Shown here one piece after another: positions 1 through 411 of a stretch of DNA of 411 nucleotides. How positions within the stretch are numbered: position 1 is the first letter of the stretch; every line of letters starts with the position of its first letter. The DNA lies in the NCBI RefSeq assembly GCF_003334335.1, contig NZ_QOWQ01000194.1, one strand, 5' to 3'. The notes under the pieces are model-generated. The model was given only the letters and a program-made list of their open reading frames with translations. It was not told where the DNA came from and did no database searches. Source of the stretch: Escherichia coli. GTDB taxonomy: Bacteria > Pseudomonadota > Gammaproteobacteria > Enterobacterales > Enterobacteriaceae. Position numbers and translations under genes: made by a program.

Positions 1-21
1 ATTGTGAAGTTAGTCACAAAA
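1..21. promoter_or_regulatory. Candidate CRP (cAMP receptor protein) binding site; core TGTGA-N6-TCACA at 3-18
   Basis: Seen in sequence: TGTGA at 3-7, 6-bp spacer agttag at 8-13, TCACA at 14-18. Both half-sites match the established CRP consensus with the canonical 6-bp spacing; the right flank is A-rich rather than T-rich. The left flank of the full 22-bp site runs off the window start. The target promoter and its orientation cannot be determined. Confidence 0.5.
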
Positions 22-42
22 AGAAGAAAGTCAAATAATCAA

Positions 43-72
43 ATTGTGCTTAACTGTTTACATCAGCACAAT
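43..72. repeat. Perfect 8-bp inverted repeat ATTGTGCT / AGCACAAT with 14-bp spacer
   Basis: Seen in sequence: 43-50 attgtgct and 65-72 agcacaat are exact reverse complements; spacer 51-64 is taactgtttacatc. No T-tract follows on either strand, so it is unlikely to be a terminator. It could be a protein-binding operator or an RNA hairpin. Confidence 0.6.
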
Positions 73-78
73 CTGATG
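61..78. repeat. Perfect 6-bp inverted repeat CATCAG / CTGATG with 6-bp spacer, overlapping the right arm of the 43-72 inverted repeat
   Basis: Seen in sequence: 61-66 catcag and 73-78 ctgatg are exact reverse complements; spacer 67-72 is cacaat. It shares bases 65-72 with the previous inverted repeat, so the two structures or sites are mutually exclusive. Confidence 0.55.
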
Positions 79-98
79 ACCATTGAATGACCATTGAA
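77..98. repeat. Perfect tandem direct repeat, 2 x 11 bp (tgaccattgaa tgaccattgaa)
   Basis: Seen in sequence: 77-87 and 88-98 are identical 11-mers in head-to-tail arrangement. An 11-bp period is about one helical turn, which places the two copies on the same DNA face; this is the arrangement used by direct-repeat-binding regulators such as OmpR/PhoB-family response regulators. No specific regulator is identified. Confidence 0.7.
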
Positions 99-133: not shown

Positions 134-256
134 TACGAAAATTCTGCATCCCCTGAATGTTTAATTTACACTCTTTTTATGCAATTATTCTTTCGACTAT
201 AAAAACACCACTATCTCATGTATGACCTTGGGGAGCGTGCCGTCTCCCCGTTTTTT
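134..256 (+). ncRNA. Candidate small RNA, copy A (5' end not determined; 3' end at the intrinsic terminator)
   Basis: Inference: a non-coding region ending in a strong intrinsic terminator, with a duplicated paralogous unit downstream and a 13-nt block (134-146) perfectly conserved between copies. No convincing sigma70 -35/-10 pair was found; TATAAA at 198-203 and TAAATT at 107-112 are weak candidates, so the start coordinate is a placeholder. I could not match the sequence to any sRNA I can recall (Spot42, CyaR, McaS, OmrA/B, RyhB, RprA, MicF and others were compared from memory). Confidence 0.3.
230..256 (+). terminator. Rho-independent (intrinsic) terminator: 6-bp GC-rich stem, 8-nt loop, 6-T tract
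   Basis: Seen in sequence: GGGGAG 230-235 pairs with CTCCCC 244-249 (five G:C pairs and one A:T); loop cgtgccgt 236-243; g250 then tttttt 251-256. The - strand has no T-tract after the hairpin (it is followed by aaggtcat), so the terminator is oriented for + strand transcription. Confidence 0.6.
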
Positions 257-304
257 CGCTTACAGTTTCATGACGACTTTCAGTTTCAGGAATCAGCAGT
301 TACC

Positions 305-331
305 ATGCAATACGAAAATTCTGTATTGCAT
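305..331. repeat. Perfect 9-bp-arm palindrome ATGCAATAC-N9-GTATTGCAT, present in unit B only
   Basis: Seen in sequence: 305-313 atgcaatac and 323-331 gtattgcat are exact reverse complements; spacer 314-322 is gaaaattct. It overlaps the unit-B copy of the conserved 13-mer (311-323). The equivalent left arm in unit A (cagcctac, 129-136) does not pair with gcatcc. It could be a dimeric-regulator operator or a 5' stem-loop of RNA B. Confidence 0.6.
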
Positions 332-411
332 CCGCGCCCTCATCTCAATATCTTTGTCGCCGGATAAAAATAACTATCAACCACAAGTATCATGCTCTCG
401 GGGAGCACGCA
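311..411 (+). ncRNA. Candidate small RNA, copy B (paralog of copy A; 3' end lies beyond the window)
   Basis: Inference from the tandem duplication: the conserved 13-mer is at 311-323, the conserved A-rich block at 362-370, and the start of a terminator-like 5' stem arm GGGGAG is at 400-405 (ggggagcacgca, cut by the window end). The matching CTCCCC arm and T-tract would lie just past position 411. Confidence 0.25.

What the first reader, a model, noticed from the sequence alone, without database searches (positions are those of the whole stretch)
305..331. Copy-specific 27-bp palindrome overlapping the conserved core in unit B only
ATGCAATAC-gaaaattct-GTATTGCAT is a perfect 9-bp-arm inverted repeat, but the equivalent region in unit A is not palindromic. 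Either unit B acquired an operator for a dimeric regulator, giving the two paralogs different regulation, or RNA B has a 5' stem-loop that sequesters the core and RNA A does not. Either would be a mechanism for functional divergence of sibling sRNAs. It is not a LexA box (CTGT at 321-324 has no partner ACAG at the required spacing) and it has no sigma54 -24 GG.
Basis: partly seen in the sequence, partly recalled or inferred. Interest (0 to 1): 0.5.

Follow-up and report, generated by a model that had tools for sequence, protein, structure and literature searches.

The report
Copy-specific palindrome in Eib-prophage spacer
A perfect 27-bp inverted repeat really exists in one of two small repeated non-coding units of a rare E. 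coli prophage, but related copies give no sign that its pairing is selected, so it is most likely an ordinary, possibly incidental, piece of promoter-region DNA.

Summary
ATGCAATAC-GAAAATTCT-GTATTGCAT (305-313/323-331) is a perfect 9-bp-arm inverted repeat, and the matching stretch of unit A is not palindromic. The window is the non-coding spacer between the tail-fibre-assembly gene and the eib adhesin gene of lambdoid prophages. It occurs in 27 of 5,426 complete E. coli genomes and nowhere else searched. It carries two small + strand units, each with a shared 16-bp core and an intrinsic terminator.

An inverted repeat this long appears in 3.9% of shuffled windows. It is, however, centred on the shared core. 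The chance that the flanks extend the core's 3-bp dyad by six pairs is about 3e-4.

Comparative data give no support for function:
- 38 copies are identical.
- 4 copies carry a one-sided arm change with no compensation.
- 19 copies lack the palindrome through a deletion.
- 1 copy is a core-to-core recombinant.
- SNP density in the palindrome equals that of its flanks.

The best promoter model puts the right arm (TTGCAT) at the -35 of unit B, so the palindrome is promoter DNA rather than RNA. The most likely reading (about 0.5) is an unselected inverted repeat. An operator (about 0.25) or an RNA hairpin (about 0.17 for the two strands together) is not excluded. Interest is low.

The parts
305..313 (.). 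Left arm of the palindrome (ATGCAATAC). Its outer 6 nt lie in a stretch that is 8 bp longer in unit B than in unit A.
   Evidence: I4; 16 nt (295-310) separate TTTCAGGAATC from TAC in unit B, against 8 nt (126-133) in unit A.
314..322 (.). Non-palindromic 9-nt centre (GAAAATTCT), which is the middle of the shared core. It would be the loop if transcribed.
323..331 (.). Right arm (GTATTGCAT). 7 of its 9 bases are shared with unit A of the PhiR5_1/P-EibA lineage (GTATTTGAT). TTGCAT at 326-331 is the -35-like hexamer of the predicted unit-B promoter.
311..326 (+). Core copy B (TACGAAAATTCTGTAT).
   Evidence: (D1). The core occurs nowhere else in the first 50 kb of the 51-kb phage PhiR5_1.
134..149 (+). 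Core copy A (TACGAAAATTCTGCAT in this window; T at 147 in 47 of 48 haplotypes). Its flanks are not complementary.
349..354 (+). Predicted -10 of unit B (TATCTT), 17 bp after TTGCAT, giving a predicted start near 361. It is homologous to TATTCT at 186-191 in unit A.
   Evidence: PWM score 6.9, weak; A/B alignment. This is inference, not mapped.
165..191 (+). Predicted unit-A promoter, TTTACA-15-TATTCT, giving a start near 198.
   Evidence: PWM score 6.0, weak. Inference.
363..370 (+). GATAAAAA block conserved between the units (TATAAAAA at 198-205 in unit A). It is either an alternative -10 or the 5' end of the RNA.
229..256 (+). Intrinsic terminator of unit A.
400..411 (+). Start of the unit-B intrinsic terminator (GGGGAGCACGCACTCCCC followed by AG and six T). 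It is cut by the window end and is complete in L001 at 8400-8425.
284..294 (+). Upstream block TTTCAGGAATC, shared with unit A (115-125, TTTCAGCAATC).
   Evidence: D5.

Best explanation
The palindrome is a real inverted repeat, specific to unit B, in non-coding DNA of Eib-type lambdoid prophages. It lies in the upstream/promoter DNA of the second of two small + strand units that each end in a terminator. These units are probably about 55-65-nt RNAs, though that is not shown.

The centre of the palindrome is the 16-bp core that both units share. Its right arm is largely ancestral and supplies TTGCAT, the best -35-like hexamer for unit B. The predicted promoter is TTGCAT-17-TATCTT, with a start near 361, which places the palindrome centre near -43.

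The perfect pairing itself is most likely not selected. The left arm lies in a stretch of unit B's upstream flank that is 8 bp longer than in unit A, and its last six bases complement the right arm. They may have been copied from it by a template-switch replication error, or they may match by chance. All surviving copies are too recent (under 3% divergence) for the pairing to have been tested by drift.

The anatomy, distribution and variation are shown. The promoter placement, the origin of the left arm and the lack of function are inferred.
For: Context: the window is the tfa-eib spacer of lambdoid prophages. Both flanking genes are on the opposite strand.

Rarity: the sequence is in 27 of 5,426 complete E. 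coli genomes and 8 phage records, in no plasmid, and in no other species representative.

Copy census: 38 copies intact and identical; 4 with one-sided G307T plus loop change T320C; 19 with a deletion of about 215-329; 1 core-to-core recombinant.

Variation in 48 haplotypes: the palindrome has 2 variable sites in 27 nt, both in one lineage. The adjacent 332-411 has 6 in 80 nt. The densities are the same.

The G307T lineage, along with three deletion-type haplotypes, carries G402T, which breaks the unit-B terminator stem without compensation. That points to drift rather than constraint.

The core and the arm sequence do not recur as a regulatory motif elsewhere in the first 50 kb of the 51-kb phage.

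The right arm matches unit A of the PhiR5_1/P-EibA lineage at 7 of 9 positions. The left arm matches at only 3 of 9, and its outer six bases lie in the stretch that is 8 bp longer in unit B.

Perfect inverted repeats of at least 9 bp are fairly common in this phage: 11 in 50 kb against about 3 in shuffles, most of them inside genes.

Rfam gives no hit.
Against: With the centre fixed on the shared core, the chance that six flanking pairs match is about 3e-4. Pure chance is therefore a poor account, and either templated mutation or selection is needed.

Two of the phage's 11 long perfect inverted repeats lie in this 0.8-kb spacer. Intergenic inverted repeats are often functional.

The palindrome overlaps the best -35 candidate and is centred near -43, a classic position for an activator or repressor.

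The comparative test has very low power: it rests on one mutational event in the arms.
Confidence: 0.5

Rival explanations
1. DNA operator or activator site. A dimeric DNA-binding protein, from the host or from an island such as IbrAB, recognises the two 9-bp arms. Because the site overlaps the -35 of the unit-B promoter (centre near -43), the protein represses or activates unit B only, giving the two sibling units different regulation.
For: The perfect dyad is centred on the shared core; the chance of that extension is about 3e-4. The right arm is the TTGCAT -35 candidate, followed after 17 bp by TATCTT. The palindrome is unchanged in 38 copies. The outer half-sites ATGCAA/TTGCAT resemble the TTGCA-type half-sites of LacI-family proteins such as CytR; this is from my own knowledge and was not tested.
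Against: What the two units share is the asymmetric centre, not the arms. Unit A has no left half-site.

The hexamers ATGCAA and TTGCAT are about 21 bp apart centre to centre, and the 9-bp arms 18 bp. A single LacI-type dimer usually spans abutting half-sites, apart from flexible CytR, and no CRP sites flank the palindrome.

The motif is absent from the first 50 kb of the 51-kb phage. There is a one-sided arm mutation, and 19 deletion copies persist. Conservation is no higher than in the flanks. No regulator has been identified.
Confidence: 0.25
2. RNA hairpin on the + strand. Unit B is transcribed from upstream of 305, either from its own promoter or by read-through of terminator A. The 9-10-bp stem then forms a 5' stem-loop that stabilises the RNA or displays the core (GAAAAUUCU) in its loop for a kissing interaction. 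RNA A lacks this structure.
For: The hairpin folds at -10.2 kcal/mol (z = -3.9) and persists when the 147-nt stretch L001 8284-8430 is folded as one RNA. A weak + strand promoter candidate, GTGCCG-18-TACAGT, predicts a start near 273.
Against: That promoter candidate is not conserved in the PhiR5_1 lineage, where TACAGT is TACAGA. A strong terminator lies just upstream at 229-256. The blocks conserved between units A and B fit a start near 361 or 376, downstream of the palindrome. There is no compensatory change; the one arm change breaks a pair. Rfam gives no hit.
Confidence: 0.1
3. RNA hairpin on the - strand. Q-antiterminated late transcripts, or a long eib leader, run from tfa through this spacer. 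The palindrome then folds in that RNA as a processing or stability element, for example an RNase III site.
For: The - strand hairpin folds at -11.0 kcal/mol, z = -3.5. tfa and eib are both on the - strand with no - strand terminator between them. A second long inverted repeat lies in the same spacer, nearer eib.
Against: The best eib promoter candidate is proximal: TTGAGT-17-GATAAT, about 10 nt before the ATG, far downstream of the palindrome on that strand. There is no covariation. The palindrome is deleted in 19 copies that keep eib.
Confidence: 0.07

Closest known systems
Operator-type inverted repeats overlapping a sigma-70 -35 element (class II activator or repressor sites such as CRP/FNR at -41.5 or lambda cI at PRM)
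   Same: A perfect dyad in non-coding DNA, centred about 43 bp upstream of a predicted start and overlapping the -35-like hexamer.
   Different: No protein is known. The arms (9 bp) and the asymmetric spacer (9 bp) are unlike CRP or FNR sites. The start site is only predicted. There is no comparative evidence of constraint.
Short prophage-encoded Hfq-binding anti-sRNAs AgvB and AsxR of EHEC (Tree et al. 2014, PMC4104026)
   Same: The surrounding units look similar in design. They are small sibling units in a lambdoid prophage, with a predicted single-stranded CA-rich 5' end of about 20-40 nt followed by a GC-rich terminator and a U tail.
   Different: AgvB and AsxR lie in the moron site downstream of PR', in convergent pairs. 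These units lie between tfa and eib. There is no blastn similarity, since only 27 genomes match. Pairing with GcvB is no better than for shuffled sequences. Expression and Hfq binding are untested.
Quasi-palindrome correction by template switching (a mutational process that turns imperfect inverted repeats into perfect ones; from my own knowledge of the replication-error literature)
   Same: A cluster of changes plus extra length on one side of a pre-existing 3-bp dyad yields a perfect complement of the other side.
   Different: The event cannot be reconstructed. No intermediate haplotype was found among 48.
CytR / LacI-family operators (TTGCA-type half-sites; from my own knowledge)
   Same: The arms contain ATGCAA and TTGCAT in inverted orientation.
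   Different: 15 bp separate the hexamers. There are no flanking CRP sites; the only CRP-type site is 300 bp away at 3-18. No motif library was available to score it.

Membership tests
LexA (SOS) box | CTGT-N8-ACAG dyad | tested here: not met
   CTGT lies at 321-324. Positions 333-336 are CGCG, not ACAG.
Sigma-54 promoter | -24 GG and -12 GC elements (TGGCAC-N5-TTGCW) | tested here: not met
   TTGCA at 326-330 fits the -12 element, but 315-320 is AAAATT, so there is no GG.
Intrinsic (Rho-independent) terminator | G+C-rich stem directly followed by a U run | tested here: not met
   The terminator scans do not list it. The stem has only 2 G-C pairs in 9. It is followed by CCGCGCCC on the + strand and GGTAACTG on the - strand.
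CRP/FNR-type site | TGTGA-N6-TCACA (or TTGAT-N4-ATCAA) | tested here: not met
   The only match in the window is at 3-18, not in the palindrome.
CytR / LacI-family operator | Inverted TTGCA-type half-sites; for CytR, a position between two cAMP-CRP sites | tested here: inconclusive
   Half-site-like ATGCAA and TTGCAT are present. No CRP sites flank them. The consensus is from memory and no scoring matrix was available.
Phage-wide operator set for a phage-encoded regulator | The same motif recurs at several promoters of the phage | tested here: not met
   The core (up to 3 mismatches) and the exact 9-mer arm occur only at this locus in the first 50 kb of the 51-kb PhiR5_1 genome; the one-mismatch arm matches elsewhere are isolated and unpaired.
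Structured RNA with selected stem | Compensatory (pair-preserving) substitutions in the stem across relatives | tested here: not met
   48 haplotypes show one arm substitution, G307T, which is one-sided and breaks a pair. There are no double changes. Power is very low.
Any curated RNA family (Rfam 15) | Covariance-model match | tested here: not met
   No match at E up to 1 in the window, or at E up to 5 in 2.3 kb around it.
AgvB/AsxR prophage anti-sRNAs | Location in the PR' moron site in convergent pairs | tested here: not met
   The units lie between tfa and eib, about 30 kb from Q/PR'.
AgvB/AsxR prophage anti-sRNAs | 5' end complementary to the seed of a core sRNA (GcvB R1 for AgvB) | tested here: not met
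   RNAduplex energies against GcvB are no better than for shuffles; the fraction of shuffles at or below the observed energy is 0.20-0.67. The GcvB sequence was verified at 206/206 in E. coli.
AgvB/AsxR prophage anti-sRNAs | Expressed 51-60-nt Hfq-bound RNA | not testable with these tools
   Only the architecture is predicted.
Type I toxin-antitoxin locus | Conserved small hydrophobic ORF with a ribosome-binding site, plus an antisense RNA | tested here: not met
   ORF 157-225 has no Shine-Dalgarno sequence. It is read in a different frame in the PhiR5_1 lineage (start shifted, 2-nt indel). The - strand 55-aa ORF after tfa is lost or truncated in several lineages.
Lambda nut boxB | 5-bp stem with a GAAAA/GAAGA pentaloop, preceded by boxA | tested here: not met
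   Here the stem is 9-10 bp and the loop 7-9 nt. There is no CGCTCTTA boxA nearby. The consensus is from memory.

The most novel reading that the evidence does not exclude
The two units are previously undescribed sibling small RNAs of Eib-type prophages, encoded beside the eib serum-resistance/adhesin gene. On this reading the 27-bp palindrome is the operator of a dedicated dimeric regulator, for example the IbrAB activator of eib or a CytR-like host protein, that switches only the second RNA. That would be a compact example of regulatory divergence of duplicated phage sRNAs.
Probability: 0.1. Interest if true: 0.45.

Novelty: new member of a known kind. Interest (0 to 1): 0.15.

Why it matters
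If the palindrome were an operator or an RNA switch, it would show how one of two duplicated prophage small-RNA units acquires its own regulation next to a virulence-associated adhesin gene (eib). It would also give a handle on how eib-region transcription is controlled.

As the evidence stands, it is an ordinary inverted repeat in a rare, recently spread prophage spacer. The more useful result is the map of the spacer:
- two, possibly three, terminator-ended + strand units;
- a shared 16-bp core;
- a perfect CRP-type site;
- natural deletion variants that can serve as ready-made mutants.

Tried and rejected
- **Known RNA family:** no Rfam hit in the window or in 2.3 kb around it.
- **AgvB-like GcvB sponge** (suggested by the CA-rich 5' ends AACCACAAG and ACACCAC): duplex energies are no better than shuffles, and the genomic position differs.
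- **Small proteins or a type I toxin:** + strand ORF 157-225 and the - strand 55-aa ORF coupled to tfa are not conserved in frame.
- **Phage-wide operator:** the motif is absent from the first 50 kb of the 51-kb PhiR5_1 genome.
- **Trans targets in the phage:** only 10-14-nt chance-level complementarities apart from the cis-antisense self match. By eye, unit A pairs with the eib start region over only 7 bp.
- **Distant homologs for a covariation test:** none exist.
  - The core-plus-ATAAAAA scan of 100,044 species genomes gave 3 chance hits.
  - Three IMG/VR scans and one metagenome scan returned only copies that are at least 85% identical overall, and at least 97% in the palindrome segment.
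  - No plasmid matched.
- **Literature:** no paper contains these sequences, and none links Eib prophages with sRNAs. The Sandt & Hill papers on eib and ibrAB are not held.
- **Other motifs:** LexA box, sigma-54, sigma-E, sigma-28, P2 Ogr-type TGT-N12-ACA, LysR T-N11-A, invertase crossover sites and nut boxB were checked by eye against remembered consensus sequences. None fits.
- **Larger dyad symmetry:** the symmetric spacing of four TTGCAT hexamers (126 bp on each side) is not backed by any longer inverted repeat.

Full report
**1. The observation**

The window reads ATGCAATAC (305-313), GAAAATTCT (314-322), GTATTGCAT (323-331). The repeat finder reports this as a 9-nt, 100% complementary inverted pair with a 9-nt gap (I4). 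It is the longest perfect inverted repeat in the window.

The same call shows the 16-nt direct repeat TACGAAAATTCTG[C/T]AT at 134-149 and 311-326. This is the "core" shared by the two units. The flanks of the unit-A copy are not complementary. As RNA, the unit-A stretch folds at -0.6 kcal/mol (+ strand) and -4.8 (- strand), with z about 0. The unit-B stretch folds at -10.2 and -11.0, with z of -3.9 and -3.5.

**2. Is it more than chance?**

Two estimates point in different directions.
- 3.9% of 5,000 dinucleotide-preserving shuffles of the window contain a perfect inverted repeat of at least 9 bp with a loop of up to 20 nt. For a scan over many windows this is unremarkable.
- The palindrome centre (318) coincides with the centre of the core (318.5). 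The core already holds a 3-bp dyad (TAC/GTA). With the centre fixed, the chance that six more flanking pairs are complementary is about 3e-4. This statistic is post hoc.

The core is a real repeat. It is 13 nt exact in this window and 16 nt in 47 of 48 haplotypes. No block longer than 12 nt appeared in 1,000 shuffles.

For scale, the lambdoid phage PhiR5_1 (first 50 kb of its 51-kb genome scanned) has 11 perfect inverted repeats of this size, against about 3 in shuffles. Most are inside genes. Two of the 11 lie in the 0.8-kb spacer studied here.

**3. Where the window comes from**

The sequence occurs in 27 of 5,426 complete E. coli genomes. It is always chromosomal, with 1-5 places per genome. 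It is also in eight phage records: PhiR5_1, PhiR5_2, five PhiR12 phages, and prophage P-EibA of ECOR-9. It is absent from plasmids.

In every annotated case it is the non-coding spacer between the tail-fibre-assembly gene (tfa; ORF-191A or DUF4376) and a YadA-like eib immunoglobulin-binding adhesin gene. This is the right end of a lambda-like genome, with the order J, lom, stf, tfa, spacer, eib, and dinI at the far end in some prophages.

Both flanking genes are on the - strand of the window. tfa ends about 140 bp to the right, and the eib ATG is about 255 bp to the left.

**4. Anatomy of the spacer**

Four terminator-like hairpins lie on the + strand, at L001 8229, 8400, 8440 and 8529. There are none on the - strand. 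Five sites were found against 0.5 expected.

Units A and B align as follows:
- TTTCAG[C/G]AATC;
- 8 nt (A) or 16 nt (B);
- the core;
- 48 nt (A) or 36 nt (B) of weakly similar sequence, containing CAATTATTCTTT in A and CAATATCTTTG in B;
- [T/G]ATAAAAA;
- ACTATC, then a CA-rich stretch, then CATG;
- a GGGGAGC...CTCCCC hairpin and a run of six T.

Rfam has no match. The small ORFs are not conserved. The units therefore look like two sibling small non-coding transcription units on the strand opposite to the phage late genes. Their expression is not shown.

**5. Promoter placement (inference)**

A simple sigma-70 matrix gives only weak candidates. The only pair that is homologous between the units is TTTACA-15-TATTCT in A (165-191, start near 198) and TTGCAT-17-TATCTT in B (326-354, start near 361). 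With these, the conserved [T/G]ATAAAAA block is the 5' end of RNAs of about 58-65 nt.

The alternative uses [T/G]ATAAA as the -10. It gives starts near 210 and 376 but has no -35.

In both models the palindrome lies upstream of the RNA. In the first, its right arm is the -35 hexamer and its centre is at about -43.

A + strand start upstream of 305 has only one weak candidate, with a predicted start near 273. That candidate is not conserved.

If the palindrome were transcribed, 7-9 of the 16 core bases would sit in the loop, so the core would be displayed rather than sequestered.

**6. Relatives and variation**

No homolog was found outside these prophages. A scan of one genome for each of 100,044 species, for the core plus ATAAAAA, found three chance hits, in Treponema, a Flavobacteriaceae bacterium and Legionella. 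Three IMG/VR scans and one metagenome scan found only near-identical copies.

The census, taken at an invariant anchor just downstream of the palindrome, gives the following:

| State of the palindrome | Copies |
|---|---|
| Intact and identical | 38 |
| ATTCAATAC-GAAAATCCT-GTATTGCAT (G307T in the left arm, no change in the right arm; T320C in the core/loop) | 4 |
| Deletion of about 215-329 (the P-EibA type) | 19 |
| Core-to-core recombinant (L060), with unit A's left flank and unit B's right arm | 1 |

The P-EibA-type deletion removes the unit-A RNA and the palindrome but keeps unit B from ATCCGCG onward.

Among 48 distinct full-length haplotypes, the variable sites in 284-331 are 294, 307 and 320, all in one lineage. 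The next 80 nt have six variable sites. The palindrome is thus no more conserved than its flanks.

The G307T lineage, along with three deletion-type haplotypes, carries G402T. This breaks the unit-B terminator stem without compensation and is present in 7 of the 48 haplotypes.

It is met, but on a single event.

**7. Origin of the arms**

The right arm (GTATTGCAT) matches unit A of the PhiR5_1/P-EibA lineage (GTATTTGAT) at 7 of 9 positions, so it is largely ancestral to the duplication.

The left arm matches unit A (TCAGCCTAC) only at the core's TAC. Its outer six bases lie in the stretch that is 8 bp longer in unit B.

A templated replication error (template switching, known to perfect quasi-palindromes; from my own knowledge) would produce exactly such a one-sided, perfectly complementary patch. 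This is inference. No intermediate haplotype was found.

**8. What it most likely is**

I put about 0.5 on an unselected inverted repeat in the promoter region of unit B. On this reading, only the TTGCAT of the right arm (as the -35) and the core matter.

About 0.25 goes to a true operator or activator site for a dimeric protein. The points for and against are:
- For: the dyad centred on the core, the position near -43, and the overlap with the -35.
- Against: the units share the asymmetric centre rather than the arms. No other copy exists in the first 50 kb of the 51-kb phage. No regulator is known. Conservation is no higher than in the flanks.

About 0.1 goes to a + strand RNA hairpin and about 0.07 to a - strand RNA element in late or eib-leader transcripts.

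**9. Comparison with known systems**

The palindrome is not a LexA box, a sigma-54 promoter, a terminator, or a CRP site. It is not part of a phage-wide operator set.

The surrounding units resemble the short prophage anti-sRNAs AgvB and AsxR in design. They differ in location, they are not sequence relatives, and they do not pair with GcvB better than shuffled sequence does.

The arms contain TTGCA-type half-sites like those of CytR/LacI-family operators. This is a lead from memory only. The 15-bp gap and the lack of flanking CRP sites argue against it.

**10. Verdict**

The sequence feature is real and specific to unit B, but it is ordinary. Neither of the proposed regulatory meanings is supported or excluded by the data available. 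The limited comparative evidence leans towards no selection on the pairing. Start-site mapping and arm-mutant reporters would settle the question quickly.

Noticed in passing
window 3-18: A perfect CRP-type site, TGTGA-AGTTAG-TCACA (0 of 200 shuffles contain one). It is invariant in all 48 haplotypes. It lies about 265 bp upstream of the eib ATG on the other strand and overlaps a weak + strand promoter candidate (TAGTCA-17-AATAAT).
   Followed up: partly
window 38-50 / 65-77: A 13-bp, 92% inverted repeat (ATCAAATTGTGCT / AGCACAATCTGAT) in the fully conserved left third of the window. Function unknown.
   Followed up: no
window 76-97: The 11-bp tandem duplication ATGACCATTGA x2 is polymorphic. 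It is present in the window and in strain 2015C-3121. PhiR5_1, PhiR5_2, P-EibA and L028 have a single copy.
   Followed up: partly
L001 7848-7890 (window about -153 to -111): An 11-bp perfect inverted repeat, GAAATTCCGAA-N16-TTCGGAATTTC, upstream of eib. It is annotated as a stem_loop in AF151091. It is one of only 11 long perfect inverted repeats in the phage, and the second one in this spacer.
   Followed up: partly
L001 8229-8546 (window 229-546): Four + strand terminator-like hairpins in a row between eib and tfa, and none on the - strand (5 sites found against 0.5 expected). The last one abuts the tfa stop codon and keeps its stem, with a changed loop, in the divergent L028 lineage. A possible third + strand unit lies at window about 430-553.
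   Followed up: partly
window 402 (terminator B stem): G402T in 7 of 48 haplotypes puts a mismatch in the middle of the unit-B terminator stem. There is no compensating change at position 415.
   Followed up: partly
window about 215-329; loci L002, L016, L032 and 16 metagenome contigs: A natural deletion (the P-EibA type) with ATC microhomology fuses the start of unit A to unit B downstream of the palindrome. One contig (L060) is a core-to-core recombinant that removes unit A's RNA.
   Followed up: yes
window 147: This window and PhiR5_2 have C at 147 (TGCAT), where 47 of 48 haplotypes have T. This shortens the exact shared core from 16 to 13 nt and breaks even the 3-bp dyad of unit A.
   Followed up: yes
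L001 7764-7792 (window about -237 to -209), - strand: The best sigma-70-like promoter in the whole spacer is TTGAGT-17-GATAAT, about 10 nt upstream of the eib start codon. It is probably the proximal eib promoter.
   Followed up: no
L001 8179, 8305, 8326, 8452 (window 179, 305, 326, 452): Four TTGCAT/ATGCAA hexamers are placed symmetrically about the palindrome centre, 126 bp apart on each side. No longer symmetry supports this, so it is probably coincidence.
   Followed up: partly
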